From NCBI GenBank assembly GCA_046546105.1, contig JBKGYN010000001.1, positions 52,441-116,440 on the forward strand: a DNA stretch of 64,000 nucleotides. Reading direction: 5' to 3'. Positions 3,001-9,000 of this stretch are shown in pieces (position 1 is the stretch's first letter; every line of letters starts with the position of its first letter). This DNA is from Candidatus Woesearchaeota archaeon. GTDB taxonomy: Archaea; Nanobdellota; Nanobdellia; Woesearchaeales; SKGA01. Position numbers: made by a program.

Positions 3001-6000
3001 TAAAAACACAACATTTATAAATAAACACCACCTTTATTTCTTTTGGAGTGGATGGAAAAAGGCTTCGATAAAGAAAAAAATCTGTAAAAAAAGAACTTCT
3101 TTTATAAAAGACCAACCCCTTCGTTTCTGATGGACGATGACATATATGTTTGAGAACTATGAATTTATAAAAACTTATTTGGTTGGGACTTCGATCCTGG
3201 ACTGATATTCTGGGATGAGTCTTTCGATCTCGTTCTTATGTCCTGCCCCGACAATCAACATCATTTTCTTTTCCGGATTGAGTTTGAGATAGCGTGCTGC
3301 CTTTCTCGCCATGTAATGATTTCGCTCATCCACTAAAACCTTGTGCATCGTCGGGAATTGTTTCTTGAGAACCCCCATTAGTTTTTCGATCATCTCTTGT
3401 GGAGGGACTTTTGTAAGTGGCACCTTCATCCTTTTTTTCTTTGGTGAAAAGGGTGCGGCCACTATTTGTCCTGCAAAACGGAATTTTTCCTTCCACGTCA
3501 ATTTCTTGAACAACCGTTTTACCGTCTTTTCCAACGACTTATCGATAAGGATGAGATCTAAATGATTGTTTTTTGCTAATGTCATCGCGAACTTCATCTC
3601 GCTACCTGGTTCCACACCTACCATCTTACCAAGCCTTTTCTGGACTGTTCTTGCGATAACAGTGAACAAGAATCCTTTGAAACCAACTGCTTTGATGAGC
3701 TGTCGTGCACTTGGTCGCTGCTGTTGTGGTGACATCAATGCCTGCGCCCTGTTTGCATCTAGTTCGACGGCTATCGTATCAGGTTTGAATCTGAGAAACT
3801 CTTGCTTGATTTCTTCAAGCGAACTTTTTGCGATATGACTCGTTCCGATAACCAGATACTCCTGCTTTCCTGTCATATATTAAGAGAATAGCTTAAGATT
3901 TTATAAACGTCACGGATGAGAAATCGAAGATGAAAGAAAAGTGAAAAGAGAAAAAAAACTTATTGGCTTACTCTTGTAACGGTAAGTTTCGGCAGTTCTT
4001 CCCAAGCGATATTGAACAGTGACTCTACCGCTTGTGAGAAAAACGGCGTATTCACCCAGACACCGACATCATATGTAGGATGGACTTCTTCATCGTTAAA
4101 GAGAAGAAATGAGAGTTCTTGACCGTCAGCGATAGCGAATCGTGCCTTGATGTGTTTCATTTGCCTTATATCCGCATACTGTGAAAGTAATTCAAGAACA
4201 TCCTGATCTATCTCATCGCCTGGAATTGCAATGCGAATCCTCACATCCCGATCTCTTGCTTTCTTGAAAGCGCGAACCAAGAAGTCAGCCTTTCGCTCCA
4301 AACCTTTATCCGTGGTGATAAGATCGAATGATTCTTCAGCTTCCTTGAGCATAAGTTGCATCTGGTTATAGACCTTGTCTCGCCCTCTGAATGATGCTGT
4401 AAGTTCTGATGGTTCTACCAGATCTACACCATTATCATGAAGTATGGAGAGTTCGCCGAGAACACTTGAATCCTTCAGCTCTTCTAGATTTTCAGTCTGT
4501 GACTTCGCATCTTCCTTAACGCGTTGCTTGACTCGCTCAATCACTTCTTTTGGCGATACAGCGATGTACTTGATCGGTTTCCCTATTTTCATGACGATGA
4601 ACCCTTTTTTTTCAAGTGATTCAAGGACATCATAGCTTCGTGAGCGTGGCACATTAGAAATATCAGATAGTTCCCCAGCACTTGCCACTCCACGAGAGAG
4701 CAGCGCAACCCATATCTTTGCTTCATAACTGTTTAGACCGAATACCTTTAGTTTCTCAATGAATTCTTTCTGCATCAGCATGATCATAACCCCAACTTAC
4801 TCATATAAAGGAAAAACAAGTATTTTTTACCACTGATGAAGAGAAAACAAATACACAATTATAAATCTTTCTATTATATAACTATTAAAGAGTGAGAACA
4901 TATAACACACAATGCTTATGTTGCAAACAACATAAGTGACACCTTGATTTCTTGTGGAAATATATAATAATATGCTAATAGGGTAAAAGAAAAAATAAAA
5001 TAAACAATATGGTTTTTTCATATAAGGCTATTTCTAATTCTTGACTGTGGTAATAACCATGATTGCAAAAACAGGATCTGTTCATTAAATAACATAACAA
5101 CTAACACACCACCCGACATTCTAAACAACACAACAACCAACACAACAACCCAAACCAAGAAATAATCCCTGTATTCCGACAATCATCGACCAACCCTCAC
5201 ACAAAATCTTTTGCAAGGTTTGCACATCAGATCCAGTTACAAAGCAATCTCATAAACCATTCTGCACCCTTATCAAGGCAGTAATACAAGGGATTTAGAG
5301 TTCATAGGACAGCATTCTCACTCGTAATCAGTTGAAGATAGATGCAAAATGTTAACAGAACATTCCAGAAGAGAGTTGAAGAACAAAAAAGTAAGAAGAA
5401 CATAAATAGAATGAAAAACACTTAATCATAATCATCATTATTAATAATAATAATTTATTTCAATATAGAAATAATTAATAATAAATAATATTAATAATAA
5501 ATATGTGTAAATATGTATAAATATATTATATGTGTGTATATATTTCATTTCCTTTCTTTATTCGTATTGTGTGTAAACTGGTTTGGTTTTGGCCTTACCT
5601 TTCAATTTCATTGTCTCGATATGGGTTTTATCGTGCAGAAAAACCTTGTTCGTGAAGTGCTCTTATTTGTCCTTTTGGTTCGCATGATCCTCTATCTCAG
5701 GATTCTTCTTGTCTGGCGAGCATCTTTTCTTTCAAGCAGCAGTACCTTGTTTTTTCACGGCTTGGTTTCAGTGTCATTGCCTGTATCAAGAATTCGTTTC
5801 AACACCTTTCTTCCACTACCAAGTGTTTCCACAAGAAATAAAGGTGTGGTTGATATATCCTGGAAACAATATATTTCACAAGGTGTTTTTTCACGTTCCA
5901 TCCTTATTCTATAATATGGTGTGTTCCACTTGCACCTTTAGTGTGTTTCATTTGTTTCGTATGGAAACACTTATTAATACTCTTGATCTCCTTGCATTGG

Positions 6001-9000
6001 ATTTATTCAGTGGTGGTTTGAAGTATGGCTGGAAAGGGTTTGGATGGTTTTTTCGAGAATTATTTGACACAGGATTCCTTGTTCGAGAATAAGAAATCGA
6101 TGCAGGCTTCTTATGTTCCTGAAGACATCGCTCATAGGGATGAACAGATCAATCAGATCGCCAACATCCTCGCTCCCGCTCTCAAGGTTGAGAAACCTTC
6201 GAATATTTTCATTTATGGGAAGACGGGAACTGGAAAGACTCTTTCTGTTCGATATACCACTAATCACATGCTTGAAGTTGCTGATCAGAATAATGTTCCT
6301 CTTAAGGTCTTTTATATCAATTGTAAGCTCAAGCGAGTTGTTGATACTGAGTATCGTCTCATAGCTGAAATCGCTCGTTTTTTTGGTAAGACCATCCCTG
6401 CAACAGGTCTTCCGACTGACGAAGTCTATAATATATTCTATAAGGCGCTTGATGAGAAAGAACAGCTTCTCCTGCTCGTTCTTGATGAGGTTGATCATCT
6501 GGTCAAAAAGACTGGTGATGAGATCATCTATAACCTTACACGTATCAATGCTGAATTGAAAAAGTCCCAGCTGTCTATCATCGGTATCAGTAACGATCTC
6601 ATGTTCGCTAATCACATCGATCCTCGCGTCAAGAGTTCCTTGAGTGAAGAAGAAATTCTTTTTCCTCCTTATAATGCTCTTCAGATCCAGGATATTCTTC
6701 GCAAGCGTTCTGCTTTAGCCTTTAAGGATGGCGCGCTTGATGATGGTGTCATTCCTAAGTGTGCTGCTTATGCTGCTCGTGAGCATGGTGATGCCCGTCG
6801 TGCTATCGATCTTCTTCGTGTCGCTGGCGAACTCGCAGACCGGTCCCAAGCAGAGAATGTTAAGATTGAGCATATTGATGAAGCTGAAGAAAAGATTGAA
6901 AAAGAGCGGATTGTTGATATTGTCAAGACTCAACCTAAACAGTTCCAGGCCACTTTGGCATCTATTTTCTCTCTTGTTGATAAGGCTGGTACCAAATCTG
7001 TTTTCACTGGTGATGTTTATGATGTCTATAAAGGTCTTTGTCCGGCTTCCGGTCTTCGTCCTATTACCCAGCGTCGCCTCTCAGATATCATTGCCGAGCT
7101 TGATATGCTCGGTCTTATCAATGCGAAAGTCATTTCCAAAGGTCGTTTCGGTAGGACTCGTGAAATTTATCTTGCTATTCCCTCTTACTTGCTCTCCAAG
7201 GTCAAGGACATTCTTGCTAAGGAGCTCGAGGTTACCTTATAAGTTTCAGATGTGTTGTGTCTTATGGATGTCTCTATAGTTACGGATTATTTAGTCGAAC
7301 AGGGAGAATTTGTTGACGAAGAGTTAGTTGATAAGCTTAATAAGCTCTTGAAATATGAAGATAGAGAGGTTCTTCGTGACAAGCTCGTTGTCTTTTTCAA
7401 ATCGCACTTTCCTGATCTTGACACCTCTTCTTTTTTCTCAAAATATTTTTCTGATGTTAATAAACGCACTAAAGTCTCTATCATCAAATCATTTGAGAAG
7501 ACTCCTACAAAGCGTAGTGTCCAGCATTTCGTCACGTATTTCAACATTCGTTTCAAATCAGTCGAGCGTTTGCTTAAGAACCGTTCAGAACTTTCGGGTG
7601 TTACATCTATCAGTCGTGTCAAGAAAAAAGGCGAGCGTGAAACCGTCGCTATTATCGGCATGGTCCTTGACAAGCGTCGTACGAAAAATGGTCATATCAT
7701 GTTGACCGTAGAGGATCGTTCAGGAGTCATCAATGTTCTTATCAATAAGGATAATGGCGAGCTCTTTCCAGTCGCTGATGATATTGTCCTTGATGAAGTC
7801 CTTGGAATCATTGGCACTTCTAGTGGTGAAATCGTTTTTTCAGATAGTATTATCCATCCTGACATTCCTTTGAGTAAGGAATTGAAAAAATCCCCTTATG
7901 ATCACAACGCTGTCTTTCTTGGTGATTTTCACTTCGGTTCCAAAGAATTCCTTGAAAAGGAATTCCATCGTTTTCTCTTGTGGCTCAATGGTAAGGTGGG
8001 AAGTCTTGAGCAGCGTCGTATCGCCCAGAAAGTTCGGTATGTTTTTGTCCTCGGTGATTTGATAGAGGGTGTTGGTGTCTATCCTGGTCAGGAAAACGAT
8101 CTCACTGTAAAAGATACTAAGGGTCAGTATGACTTGGTCGCTAAGTATTTCAAGAAGATTCCGAGCCATATCAAGATCATCATCTGCCCTGGTAACCACG
8201 ACGTCGGTCGATTGGCCGAGCCGCAGCTCCCCATTCCTAAAGAATACGCTCCTGAACTTTGGGAGCTTCCTAATGTCATCATGGTATCGAACCCTGCTTA
8301 CGTCTCGGTTGATGTGTCTGAAGAGTTCTCTGGTATCGATGTTCTTCTCTATCACGGCGGTTCTCTCATCTATTATTCTGATGCTATTCCTTCGATCCGG
8401 TCCAATGGCGGTCAGAAGATCGCTCACGAGATCATGGGCCAGCTTCTCAAGCGTCGCCACCTTGCTCCCTCGCACAGCTCCACGATGTATATTCCTGACT
8501 TGCAGGAGGATCCGCTTCTCATCGATCCCATACCTGACATCTTCGCTACCGGTCACATCCACCGTGCCCAGTCCAAGAATTATCGTAATGTCACCTGCTT
8601 GAATACCTCTTGCTGGACTGCTATCACTGAGGATCAGGAGAAGCGTGGCCTTGAGCCCCAGCCTGGTCGTGTCATGGTTGTCTCGCTCAAGACAAGAGAA
8701 GTCAAGGCTCTTAATTTCAGCACCACTAAAGACGTCGCTTCTGTCGCTGAATATAAGAAGATGAAGCGTGATGCTGAGAAAAAGGAGAAGCAAAAGGCTG
8801 CTTCCTCGCAAAGCTAGTGTGGTGTCTCATGTTCGTTCGTGCTAAAAAGGTCAAGGGCCGATACTACGGATACCTTGTTGATAACAAGTGGGTTGATGGC
8901 AAGGTCCGTCAGAAAGTCAAGAAATACCTTGGTCCGATCCGCGAACTCTCTGATACTGGTTCCGATCTTTATTTCGATCTCGATACCACTACATCCTCTC

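What the first reader, a model, noticed from the sequence alone, without database searches (positions are those of the whole stretch)
4790..6024. Replication origin with ORB-like TTCCACAAG/GGAAAC repeats and a ~90% AT unwinding element, within a replisome gene island
A 1.2-kb ORF-free region lies directly upstream of orc1/cdc6. It carries several TTCCAC..GGAAAC-type motifs resembling archaeal origin recognition boxes (core TCCAC-N-GGAAAC) in both orientations, an inverted repeat GTGTTTC-N13-GAAACAC, and a ~125-bp block of almost pure A+T at 5425-5550. Within 20 kb are mcm, tbp, orc1, both PolD subunits, hef and the primase. This is the expected oriC layout, but the ORB sequence variant (TTTCCACAAG) and the CA-rich strand-asymmetric segment at about 5090-5230 are lineage-specific and worth defining.
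Basis: partly seen in the sequence, partly recalled or inferred. Interest (0 to 1): 0.5.

Follow-up and report, generated by a model that had tools for sequence, protein, structure and literature searches.

The report
Woesearchaeal chromosome replication origin beside orc1
The gene-free 1.2 kb upstream of orc1 is a textbook archaeal replication origin (initiator-binding boxes in inverted orientation around a 90% A+T melting zone) in an uncultured DPANN archaeon; the one feature I found no description of is a 14-bp palindrome in the middle of the melting zone, conserved across the order.

Summary
The window comes from a Woesearchaeota (Nanobdellota, DPANN) genome.

**Origin anatomy.** Between a TrmB-like gene and orc1 (Orc1-1 type) lie:
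- two full origin recognition boxes, 4938-4961(-) and 5825-5848(+);
- between them, the least stable duplex of the 64 kb (5425-5550, 90.5% A+T);
- a third, weaker box at 5945-5968(-), abutting the inferred orc1 TATA box.

**Conservation.** The layout ORB(-)/DUE/ORB(+)/proximal ORB/orc1-dp1-dp2 recurs in 80 related species. A matrix built from those relatives also recovers the genetically essential ORBs of Sulfolobus islandicus oriC1, with the same spacing and polarity.

The "ORB variant" is ordinary. The CA-rich tract is not conserved in sequence.

**Possibly new.** A palindrome TTTCWATATWGAAA (5458-5471) sits in the DUE in 40 of 52 informative species and almost nowhere else.

**Other boxes.** Full or near-full ORBs also lie upstream of tbp and in a conserved iteron module upstream of a radA operon.

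**Untested.** Origin firing and Orc1 binding.

The parts
4938..4961 (-). ORB-L: full origin recognition box. Minus strand reads ATTTCCACAAGAAATCAAGGTGTC. The TTCCA (dyad) end faces the DUE and the GGTGT end points away.
   Evidence: 32.0 bits with the matrix from 80 other species. Left arm of the 22-nt, 95% inverted repeat. Conserved in L002 and L004-L006. Same strand as 40 of 41 distal ORBs in relatives.
5066..5230 (+). A+C-rich low-complexity tract ((CAA)n-like) in the left arm between ORB-L and the DUE. It evolves fast and is probably spacer DNA.
   Evidence: A+C 79%, z 5.2, the extreme of the window. No similarity outside the species. 22-nt indel against L002. Left-arm A+C bias and right-arm G+T bias recur in L004 and L005.
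5400..5550 (.). DNA unwinding element (DUE): 88.7% A+T over 151 nt, 90.5% over 5425-5550.
   Evidence: Least stable duplex in 64 kb, z 6.7. In 36 loci with an inverted ORB pair, the richest 60 nt between the boxes has a median of 97% A+T, even in loci of 54-63% GC.
5458..5471 (.). Central DUE palindrome TTTCAATATAGAAA (order-wide consensus TTTCWATATWGAAA). Its binding partner is unknown.
   Evidence: Only copy in the window. Present with at most 1 mismatch in 46 of 75 orc1-upstream regions (40 of 52 with at least 700 nt), against 1 hit in 511 kb elsewhere in those loci. Lies between ORB(-) and ORB(+) in 31 loci. Source of the most widely shared 10- and 12-mers upstream of orc1.
5550..5824 (+). 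T-rich right arm between the DUE and ORB-R. It carries the spurious ORFs 5513-5914 and 5709-6092.
   Evidence: AT skew -0.39 to -0.46. T is 110 of 251 bases. No similarity outside the species.
5825..5848 (+). ORB-R: full origin recognition box GTTTCCACAAGAAATAAAGGTGTG, with the dyad end facing the DUE.
   Evidence: 32.1 bits, the best hit of the window. Right arm of the inverted repeat. Same strand as 47 of 53 ORBs at -265 to -60 in relatives.
5924..5935 (+). Half or mini-ORB-like TTCCACTTGCAC. It is one of six TTCCA/TGGAA pentamers in 5800-5990; the others start at 5811, 5827, 5861, 5896 and 5962.
   Evidence: Pentamer cluster of 6 against 0.53 expected. TTCCAYnnGCA is kept in L004 and L005. 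Only 3.5 bits with the full matrix, so its function is uncertain.
5945..5968 (-). ORB-P: promoter-proximal ORB. Minus strand reads GTTTCCATACGAAACAAATGAAAC. It has the dyad but no G-string and directly abuts the orc1 TATA box.
   Evidence: 18.7 bits. Highly conserved block GTGTTTCAT.TG.TTC.TATGGAAACACTTATTAATA in five sequences. Relatives carry a (-) ORB at -2 to -50 next to a TATA box in 40 loci.
5970..5979 (+). Inferred orc1 TATA box (CTTATTAATA). A conserved GGTGG Shine-Dalgarno-like motif follows at 6013-6017.
   Evidence: Invariant TTATTAAT and TGGTGG in the five-sequence alignment. The promoter assignment is inferred, not measured.
6025..7242 (+). orc1/cdc6, the initiator gene (405 aa, Orc1-1 / oriC1 type).
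   Evidence: Pfam Cdc6_lid, Cdc6_C and AAA. S. solfataricus Orc1-1 (2qby_A) E 3e-106; A. pernix ORC1 (2v1u) E 5e-97. orc1-dp1 synteny in 79 of 80 species.
3027..3137 (-). Two outlying ORB-like boxes (3027-3050 and 3114-3137), upstream of tbp and among four or five TTTATAAA boxes.
   Evidence: 14.7 and 16.6 bits. Both conserved in the tbp-traB gap of 7 species.
35918..35941 (+). Orphan full ORB TTTTCCACAGGAAATAAGGGGGTG. It sits inside a module of about 9 GAGACTG iterons (35836-36020), between a wHTH gene and a 93-aa/radA operon.
   Evidence: 32.0 bits. Iterons. Module conserved in L084, L164, L165, L166 and L168.

Best explanation
This is the chromosomal replication origin (oriC1 type) of a Woesearchaeota archaeon. 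Every step of the mechanism below is inferred from Sulfolobus, Aeropyrum and Pyrococcus work; none was measured here.

1. ATP-bound Orc1, encoded immediately to the right, binds as a monomer with fixed polarity to ORB-L (4938-4961, -) and ORB-R (5825-5848, +). The dyad ends of both boxes face inward.
2. The two bound initiators recruit MCM (encoded 3 kb to the left) onto the intervening DNA.
3. The 90% A+T block at 5400-5550 melts, and forks leave in both directions.
4. The palindrome in the centre of the DUE (5458-5471) is most likely a second specific protein-binding site needed for activation. It could be a symmetric, low-affinity Orc1 site, since it shares TTTC...GAAA arms with the ORB dyad but has a spacer 1 bp longer. 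Or it could bind an unknown factor, by analogy with the Sulfolobus ucm/UBP element.
5. The weaker proximal box ORB-P, which abuts the orc1 TATA box, most likely lets Orc1 repress its own promoter.
6. The roughly 550 extra nt between the boxes are fast-evolving spacer without a sequence-specific role. These are the A+C-rich left arm and the T-rich right arm; the order median spacer is 311 nt and here it is 863 nt.
For: Shown here:
- **Initiator.** orc1 is of the Orc1-1 type.
- **ORBs are far above chance.** There are 6 hits of at least 14 bits against 0.21 expected, and 3 hits of at least 25 bits against 0.005 expected.
- **Motif enrichment.** TTCCANNNGAAA is 33-fold enriched within 1 kb upstream of orc1 in 80 species: 2.22 per kb against 0.067 per kb.
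- **Conserved polarity.** 40 of 41 distal boxes are on (-), and 47 of 53 boxes at -265 to -60 are on (+).
- **An A+T block always lies between the boxes.** The median of the richest 60 nt is 97% A+T, even in loci of 54-63% GC. In the window it is the least stable duplex.
- **Positive control.** The same matrix finds the genetically essential ORB3(-) and ORB2(+) of S. islandicus oriC1, at 16.3 and 16.5 bits, with the same TCCA-N3-GAAA-N4-GGGGT spacing and the same inward-facing polarity. It also finds the P. furiosus ORB1-3 oligonucleotides that bind Cdc6 in vitro, and nothing in their control oligo.
- **Synteny.** orc1-dp1-dp2 is kept in 79 and 68 of 80 species.
- **Gene orientation.** Genes diverge from the gap in the window. 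In 35 of 43 loci the nearest upstream ORF is on (-).
- **Palindrome.** Present in 40 of 52 informative species, with 1 hit in 511 kb elsewhere.
- **Proximal box next to TATA.**

From the literature:
- ORB2 and ORB3 and a DUE-internal motif are each required for S. islandicus oriC1 firing, and MCM is recruited between the ORBs (PMC12141716).
- ORB(-)/DUE/ORB(+) is the common pattern of predicted Cdc6-type origins, including in Nanobdellota (bioRxiv 10.64898/2026.08.15.744077).
Against: - There is no direct evidence of firing or of Orc1 binding.
- Cumulative GC skew inside the window has its minimum near 19 kb, not at 5.5 kb. The measure is confounded by coding strand there.
- The distance between the boxes (863 nt) is much longer than in characterised origins (about 130 bp in S. 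islandicus) and is the second longest among 36 loci. MCM loading geometry may therefore differ.
- A further full ORB lies 30 kb away, so this need not be the only Orc1-bound site, or the only origin.
- In Thermococcus kodakarensis the origin and Cdc6 are dispensable (PMC5663688). A canonical origin sequence therefore does not prove that the origin is used.
- The assignments of the palindrome and of autoregulation are inference only.
Confidence: 0.87

Rival explanations
1. The gap is only a divergent promoter and operator region. The TTCCA...GAAA boxes would be operators, for Orc1 acting as a transcription factor or for the neighbouring TrmB-like regulator. Replication would start elsewhere or by recombination.
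For: - ORB-P abuts the orc1 TATA box.
- ORBs also occur next to TATA boxes upstream of tbp and upstream of a radA operon, so Orc1 boxes in this lineage are not restricted to the origin.
- GC skew in the window shows no clear switch at the gap.
- T. kodakarensis replicates without its origin or Cdc6 (PMC5663688).
Against: - The inverted pair with a nearly pure A+T block between the boxes, kept in loci of 54-63% GC, is not a promoter feature.
- The polarity and spacing match a genetically proven origin.
- The TrmB-like gene is next to the gap in only 23 of 44 species, while the boxes are nearly universal.
- The palindrome is unique to this place.
Confidence: 0.06
2. The iteron-plus-ORB module at 35836-36020 is a second origin, or the main one. 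It would be specified by the adjacent wHTH protein together with Orc1, as WhiP specifies oriC3 in Sulfolobus.
For: - It holds a full 32-bit ORB flanked by about 9 GAGACTG repeats spaced 11-12 nt or 22 nt apart.
- The module and its neighbouring genes are conserved in six genomes, down to 36% identity of the wHTH protein.
- The ORB there is nearly invariant across those genomes.
Against: - It has only one ORB, no inverted partner, no A+T block and no central palindrome.
- The wHTH domain matches only generic Fur/PadR/ArsR/MarR regulators, with Foldseek E of 4e-3 or worse.
- The module is absent near radA in 78 of 80 other Woesearchaeota radA loci.
- A conserved promoter-like block for the radA operon lies beside it, which fits transcriptional control better.
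Confidence: 0.1
3. The unusually long arms between the boxes carry a lineage-specific gene, a non-coding RNA or a remnant of a mobile element, not spacer DNA. The arms are the A+C-rich 5066-5230 and the T-rich 5550-5824.
For: - A 133-aa ORF was called here in one public assembly.
- The spacer is 863 nt against a median of 311 nt.
- The compositional bias of the arms recurs in two sister species.
Against: - No Pfam hit and no Rfam hit at E up to 1.
- The ORFs and both arms have no similarity outside the species and no second copy in the window.
- Indels within the species fall in low-complexity repeats.
Confidence: 0.05

Closest known systems
Sulfolobus islandicus / S. solfataricus oriC1 with Orc1-1 (ORB3-DUE-ORB2; PMC12141716)
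   Same: - The initiator is the closest solved relative (2qby_A, E 3e-106).
- The box has the same build, TCCA-N3-GAAA-N4-GGGGT.
- Two boxes are inverted around an A+T-rich DUE, with dyad ends inward and G-rich ends outward.
- The initiator gene is adjacent.
- A specific sequence element lies in the middle of the DUE.
   Different: - The box-to-box distance is 863 nt here against about 130 bp.
- The G-rich end is GGTGT in the window (GGGGT in most relatives).
- The central element is a 14-bp palindrome unrelated in sequence to the 11-bp ucm (ATTATACAAAC).
- The palindrome occurs once per 64 kb, whereas UBP has hundreds of binding sites in the Sulfolobus chromosome.
- The organism apparently has a single Orc1 and lacks the oriC2 and oriC3 systems. 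Single copy is taken from the literature (bioRxiv 10.64898/2026.05.13.725050); it was not tested here.
Pyrococcus / Thermococcales oriC (PMC1904270, PMC4640148)
   Same: - The gene order is oriC-cdc6-dp1-dp2.
- Long inverted ORBs occur together with shorter TTCC...GAA half boxes.
- The core TTCCA-N3-GAAAT-N-AA is shared: P. furiosus ORB1 scores 17.3 bits with the Woesearchaeal matrix.
   Different: - The Pyrococcus G-run lies 9 nt after GAAA, not 4 nt.
- Pyrococcus has a second ORB cluster inside dp1. Here no box of at least 14 bits lies in dp1; the outlying boxes are upstream of tbp instead.
- I know of no central palindrome reported for Pyrococcus (from memory, not checked).
Automated oriC predictions for Nanobdellota (Ori-Finder-Arch preprint, bioRxiv 10.64898/2026.08.15.744077; ORC1-rotated genomes, 10.64898/2026.05.13.725050)
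   Same: They report the same general claim: Cdc6-adjacent origins with an ORB(-)/DUE/ORB(+) pattern, and the phylum is covered.
   Different: In the text I could read, those works give no ORB consensus, DUE palindrome, proximal-box and promoter link, or extra-origin ORBs for Woesearchaeota. I did not read their supplementary tables.
Sulfolobus Orc1-2, the DNA-damage-responsive regulator (PMC9738581)
   Same: It is a precedent for an Orc1-family protein acting at promoters of DNA-repair genes. Here a full ORB lies upstream of a radA operon.
   Different: Orc1-2 is a dedicated non-initiator paralogue with its own motif. Here the box is a perfect initiator ORB, and only one orc1 is known in these genomes. 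No expression data exist.

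Membership tests
Archaeal Orc1/Cdc6-adjacent (oriC1-type) replication origin | An Orc1-1-type initiator gene lies directly adjacent. | tested here: met
   orc1 at 6025-7242. Pfam Cdc6_lid, Cdc6_C and AAA. 2qby_A E 3e-106 and 2v1u E 5e-97.
Archaeal Orc1/Cdc6-adjacent (oriC1-type) replication origin | Two or more ORB repeats match the experimentally defined box (TCCA-N3-GAAA-N4-GGGGT). | tested here: met
   Boxes of 32.0, 32.1 and 18.7 bits in the gap, far above shuffles. 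The same matrix recovers S. islandicus ORB2 and ORB3 and P. furiosus ORB1-3.
Archaeal Orc1/Cdc6-adjacent (oriC1-type) replication origin | The ORBs are inverted and flank an A+T-rich unwinding element, with the dyad ends facing it. | tested here: met
   Inverted repeat. DUE 90.5% A+T, z 6.7. Polarity identical to S. islandicus fragment P23 and to 40/41 and 47/53 boxes in relatives.
Archaeal Orc1/Cdc6-adjacent (oriC1-type) replication origin | The architecture is conserved in related genomes. | tested here: met
   80 species. 36 loci with a complete inverted pair and an A+T block.
Archaeal Orc1/Cdc6-adjacent (oriC1-type) replication origin | The initiator binds the boxes specifically. | not testable with these tools
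   Needs EMSA or footprinting with recombinant Orc1.
Archaeal Orc1/Cdc6-adjacent (oriC1-type) replication origin | Replication starts here (marker frequency, 2D gels, skew switch). | tested here: inconclusive
   Within 64 kb the cumulative GC skew minimum is near 19 kb and is confounded by gene strand. Gene orientation diverges from the gap, which is only indirect support.
Sulfolobales ucm / UBP element of the DUE | An 11-bp ucm sequence (ATTATACAAAC) lies inside the DUE. | tested here: not met
   The central element here is TTTCAATATAGAAA. The ucm sequence was read from the oligonucleotides in PMC12141716. The resemblance is in position and presumed role only.
Sulfolobales ucm / UBP element of the DUE | The motif also occurs at hundreds of chromosomal sites (site of a nucleoid-associated protein). 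| tested here: not met
   One copy in the 64-kb window, 1 in 511 kb of orc1 loci outside the origin, and 1 in 402 kb of radA loci. The last one lies next to a 35-bit ORB, so it is presumably an origin.
Thermococcales oriC organisation | A second ORB or mini-ORB cluster lies inside dp1. | tested here: not met
   No hit of at least 14 bits in 7252-8817.
Haloarchaeal ORB | [quoted passage not shown] | tested here: not met
   The box ends GGTGT(G/C) in the window and GGGGT in the order consensus, with no long G-run. Definition taken from PMC3528665.

The most novel reading that the evidence does not exclude
Two linked readings are not excluded.

(a) The 14-bp palindrome TTTCWATATWGAAA in the centre of the DUE is an undescribed, order-wide and origin-exclusive cis element of Woesearchaeal origins. 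It would be the site of a symmetric second mode of Orc1 binding or of a new origin factor, playing the role that ucm/UBP plays in Sulfolobales.

(b) In these single-Orc1 DPANN archaea the initiator doubles as a transcription factor. Full ORBs placed against TATA boxes at orc1 itself, upstream of tbp, and in a conserved iteron module upstream of a radA operon would couple initiator level to basal transcription and to recombination repair.
Probability: 0.45. Interest if true: 0.55.

Novelty: new variant of a known kind. Interest (0 to 1): 0.4.

Why it matters
DPANN archaea are uncultured or hard to culture, and their replication control is known only from gene inventories.

This analysis gives base-level anatomy of a Woesearchaeal origin that holds across about 80 species: the box consensus, its polarity, the DUE, a central palindrome and a promoter-proximal box. 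That has three practical uses.
- It gives defined oligonucleotides for Orc1 binding and unwinding assays.
- It gives a reliable anchor for rotating genomes and for growth-rate estimates from peak-to-trough coverage.
- It explains why short-read assemblies of these organisms so often break just upstream of orc1.

The palindrome would be a second case, in a distant lineage, of a specific element inside an archaeal DUE. That would suggest such elements are a general but overlooked part of archaeal origins.

The origin itself is ordinary. It extends a well-known design to another phylum.

Tried and rejected
1. **RNA genes.** Rfam on 4600-6200 at E up to 1, Rfam on the whole window at gathering thresholds, and tRNA search all found nothing.
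2. **Coding potential of the gap.** ORFs 5513-5914 and 5709-6092 have no family and no conservation outside the part of p127 that overlaps orc1. Rejected as genes.
3. **GC and AT skew in the window.** Not informative, because it is confounded by coding strand.
4. **A-rich-left / T-rich-right switch as a general origin property.** Rejected. It holds only for the window, L004 and L005. Across 31-33 loci the mean skews are slightly opposite.
5. **TrmB-like neighbour as the palindrome-binding factor.** Not supported. TrmB is adjacent in 23 of 44 species, while the palindrome is in 40 of 52. L022, L025, L027 and L029 have the palindrome without TrmB.
6. **Extended cruciform around the palindrome.** Flank complementarity is 47% against 37% at shifted centres. 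This is weak and I make no claim from it.
7. **Reaching more distant Orc1 loci to date the palindrome.** The breadth of the palindrome beyond Woesearchaeota is unknown.
8. **radA-based metagenome scan for the orphan ORB.** Only 1 of 80 loci had it near radA. The module was recovered through the wHTH neighbour instead.
9. **Fold of the wHTH protein.** Generic winged helix only, with no resemblance to an initiator. The 93-aa protein upstream of radA has no hit above the Pfam gathering cut-off and no PDB sequence hit.
10. **Literature string search for the palindrome.** Only unrelated primer matches.
11. **Recurrent PWM hits of 14-19 bits at +74 to +89 inside orc1 in several species.** I read these as a by-product of the conserved peptide YVPE(D/E)I (my reading of the codons, not tested) and not as boxes.

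Full report
**Source and context.**
- The 405-aa Orc1 of the window is encoded identically in a Woesearchaeota MAG (GCA_046540075.1) and in two Logan assemblies. Its best relatives are Nanobdellota/Woesearchaeota MAGs.
- Pfam assigns these genes: MCM (60-2099, -), TBP (2303-2881, -), a TraB-family protein (3175-3876, -), a TrmB-like regulator (3960-4787, -), then the gap 4788-6024, then Orc1/Cdc6 (6025-7242, +), PolD DP1 (7252-8817, +), PolD DP2 (10649-14470, +), Hef (15092-17404, +) and a fused PriS-PriL primase (17461-19119, +).
- Orc1 is of the Orc1-1 type. S. solfataricus Orc1-1 (2qby_A) matches at E 3e-106 and A. pernix ORC1 (2v1u) at E 5e-97. Both were crystallised on ORB DNA.

**The observation.**
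- The A+T block is real and exceptional. 5425-5550 is 90.5% A+T. 5431-5531 is the least stable 100-nt duplex of the 64 kb (z 6.7), and no 125-nt window outside 5200-5700 exceeds 78% A+T.
- A 22-nt inverted repeat, 95% complementary, lies at 4939-4960 and 5826-5847, 865 nt apart, and brackets that block.
- The 14-mer GTTTCCACAAGAAA with up to 2 mismatches occurs four times in the window, three of them in the gap.
- TTCCA/TGGAA pentamers reach their window-wide maximum at 5800-5990: 6 against 0.53 expected.
- The repeat GTGTTTC...GAAACAC is at 5943-5970 with a 14-nt spacer, not 13.
- The CA-rich tract is the most A+C-rich 140 nt of the window (79%, z 5.2).
- The gap is not literally ORF-free. 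Its two mechanical ORFs have no family. p133 has no counterpart outside the species, and p127 matches L004 (95% Orc1 identity) only where it overlaps orc1. Rfam finds nothing.

**Comparative test.**
- A scan of one genome per species returned 80 orc1 loci with 62-95% Orc1 identity.
- The core TTCCANNNGAAA occurs at 2.22 per kb in the 1 kb upstream of orc1, against 0.067 per kb in the remaining 521 kb of those loci. This is a 33-fold enrichment.
- The 86 distal instances give the consensus tTTCCAyAgGAAAtaAAGGgGTg.
- A 24-nt matrix built only from those other species scores the window as follows:

| Position | Bits |
|---|---|
| 5825-5848 (+) | 32.1 |
| 4938-4961 (-) | 32.0 |
| 35918-35941 (+) | 32.0 |
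| 5945-5968 (-) | 18.7 |
| 3114-3137 (-) | 16.6 |
| 3027-3050 (-) | 14.7 |
| next best hit | 8.5 |

- Dinucleotide shuffles give 0.21 hits of at least 14 bits (maximum 2) and 0.005 hits of at least 25 bits.
- The layout recurs across the order: a (-) box at -250 to -1100, a (+) box at -75 to -260, and often a (-) box at -2 to -50.
- Polarity is nearly invariant. 40 of 41 distal boxes are on (-), and 47 of 53 boxes at -265 to -60 are on (+).
- In 36 loci with a complete inverted pair, the richest 60 nt between the boxes has a median of 97% A+T. It is 90-92% in loci of 54-63% GC. The median box-to-box spacer is 311 nt, and the window's 863 nt is the second longest.
- orc1-dp1 synteny holds in 79 of 80 species and dp2 in 68 of 80. 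The TrmB-like gene is the upstream neighbour in 23 of 44.
- Genes diverge from the gap. In the window all four genes to the left are on (-) and almost all genes for 35 kb to the right are on (+). In 35 of 43 loci the nearest upstream ORF is on (-).

**Calibration against proven origins.**
- The supplementary oligonucleotide P23 of PMC12141716 carries the S. islandicus ORB3-DUE-ORB2 fragment. Linker-scanning mutations in either ORB abolish firing of that origin.
- The Woesearchaeal matrix finds exactly those two boxes: 16.3 bits on (-) at the left and 16.5 bits on (+) at the right.
- They share the spacing TCCA-N3-GAAA-N4-GGGGT, with the TCCA ends facing the DUE and GGGGT outward. The window has the same geometry.
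- The P. furiosus ORB1, ORB2 and ORB3 oligonucleotides that bind Cdc6 in vitro (PMC1904270) score 17.3, 10.0 and 16.7 bits. Their control oligo gives no hit.
- The window's box is therefore an ordinary ORB, not a lineage-specific variant.

- An unbiased count of k-mers shared among orc1-upstream regions is topped not by the ORB but by TTCAATATAGAA and TCTATATTGAAA, each present in 25 species.
- These k-mers come from a palindrome, TTTCWATATWGAAA.
- With at most one mismatch it is present in 46 of 75 upstream regions, and in 40 of 52 regions with at least 700 nt. It occurs once in the other 511 kb of the same loci and once in the window, at 5458-5471.
- It occurs once in 402 kb of radA loci, and there it sits next to a 35-bit ORB, so that locus presumably contains an origin.
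- It lies in 89% A+T context, between the (-) and (+) boxes, in 31 loci. The median distances to the boxes are 189 and 147 nt.
- Its arms are those of the ORB dyad, but its spacer is 1 bp longer: consensus ORB TTTC-CATAG-GAAA against TTTC-WATATW-GAAA.
- It is unrelated in sequence to the Sulfolobus ucm (ATTATACAAAC).
- I found no mention of it in the paper library.

**The proximal box.**
- In 40 relatives a (-) box lies between a TATA box and the orc1 start codon. On the plus strand this reads TTTATAAACC-ORB-ATG.
- In the window's subclade the order is ORB-P, then the TATA box CTTATTAATA (5970-5979), then a conserved GGTGG, then ATG. The whole block is nearly invariant in five sequences.
- Orc1 bound there would overlap the BRE/TATA region. 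Negative autoregulation is inferred from this, not shown.

**The arms.**
- The A+C-rich left arm and the T-rich right arm cannot be aligned with L004-L006. They have no copy elsewhere.
- They differ within the species by a 22-nt deletion in the CA repeats and a 21-nt insertion in the DUE.
- Their compositional polarity recurs in L004 and L005: left arm 57% and 67% A+C, right arm 41% and 28%. It does not recur in the order at large.
- The sign of the bias is the one expected for leading-strand G+T excess if forks diverge from the DUE. A 79% bias in a (CAA)n-like tract is too strong to ascribe to mutation pressure alone.
- I treat the arms as fast-evolving spacer with an unexplained compositional constraint.

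**Boxes outside the origin.**
- Two ORB-like boxes upstream of tbp are conserved in all seven species that share the tbp-traB-trmB-orc1 order. They lie among four or five invariant TTTATAAA boxes.
- The 32-bit box at 35918 lies inside a module of phased GAGACTG repeats, between a small coiled-coil plus winged-helix gene and a 93-aa/radA/pelota operon.
- That module, with an almost invariant ORB, is conserved in five further genomes, down to 36% identity of the winged-helix protein. It is absent from 78 of 80 other Woesearchaeota radA loci.
- The winged-helix domain models well (pLDDT above 90) but resembles only generic Fur/PadR/ArsR/MarR regulators.
- The module has no A+T block, no partner box and no palindrome. 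I therefore favour transcriptional control over a second origin, with low confidence.

**What is known.**
- Orc1-adjacent ORB/DUE/ORB origins are textbook (PMC4010727, PMC5333045).
- A 2026 preprint reports the ORB(-)/DUE/ORB(+) pattern for 67% of predicted Cdc6-type origins and lists Nanobdellota among the phyla covered.
- Another preprint rotates 208 Nanobdellota genomes to ORC1 without describing the origin DNA.
- The origin as such is therefore a new member of a known kind. The DUE palindrome and the extra-origin boxes make it a modest new variant.

**Verdict.**
- Observation: confirmed.
- Interpretation: right in the main, wrong in what it singled out as special.
- Confidence that this is the chromosomal origin: about 0.87. 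The remainder is for non-use of the origin or for an additional origin.
- Firing and Orc1 binding remain untested.

Noticed in passing
window 35836-36094 (ORB at 35918-35941); also L084:1-150, L164:2545-3000, L165:2617-3000, L166:2649-3000, L168:2637-3000: A conserved module: five or six phased GAGACT(G) repeats, then a near-invariant full ORB (TTCCATAGGAAATAAGGGGGTG), then four to six more repeats. It lies between a coiled-coil plus winged-helix gene (invariant N-terminus MKDLF, only 15 homologues found) and a 93-aa/radA/pelota/FmrO operon. A conserved CACTGGACA...CTATTTAAA promoter-like block lies beside it. Its function is unknown; it could be Orc1-linked control of radA or an iteron-type origin.
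   Followed up: partly
window 2867-3174 (ORB-like boxes at 3027-3050 and 3114-3137, both on the minus strand): The region upstream of tbp carries four or five invariant palindromic TATA boxes (TTTATAAA) and two ORB-like boxes. All are conserved in the seven species that share the tbp-traB-trmB-orc1 order. It also holds the second least stable 60-nt duplex of the window (2965-3025, 89% A+T).
   Followed up: partly
L004-L083 (80 orc1 loci), contig ends; L006 and L013 contain runs of N: 29 of 80 contigs end within 700 nt upstream of orc1, against 2 of 80 within 700 nt downstream. The contig ends lie in 73-95% A+T low-complexity DNA. L006 has a scaffold gap inside the origin; the N run in L013 lies in the tbp-traB gap. 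Short-read assemblies of Woesearchaeota tend to break at the DUE.
   Followed up: yes
window 5100-5145 and 5470-5500 compared with L002 (same species, GCA_046540075.1): Indels within the species are confined to low-complexity origin DNA: a 22-nt deletion in the CAACAC repeats and a 21-nt duplication (ATTAATAATAAATAATATTA) in the DUE.
   Followed up: yes
window 17461-19119 (+): A single 552-aa protein carries both the small-subunit and the large-subunit primase domains (PF01896 and PF04104), so it is a PriS-PriL fusion.
   Followed up: no
orc1 coding sequence at about +74 to +89 in L010, L013, L014, L020, L024, L026, L038 and L075: Recurrent ORB-matrix hits of 14-19 bits inside orc1. I attribute them to the codons of the conserved peptide YVPE(D/E)I (GTTCCAGAAGAAAT). 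This is probably a coincidence of coding, not a box, and I did not test it.
   Followed up: no
window 4800-4900: A block conserved across five sequences upstream of the TrmB-like gene (TTTTACCACT...AAGAGAAAA...TTATAAAT.TTTCTATT.TATAAC.ATT). It is presumably the gene's promoter, leader or operator. It lies outside ORB-L and so is not part of the box-DUE-box core.
   Followed up: no
L138:1566-2040 (a metagenome radA locus): A 35-bit ORB and the DUE palindrome lie about 1.2 kb downstream of radA in this contig. In that genome the origin apparently neighbours radA.
   Followed up: no
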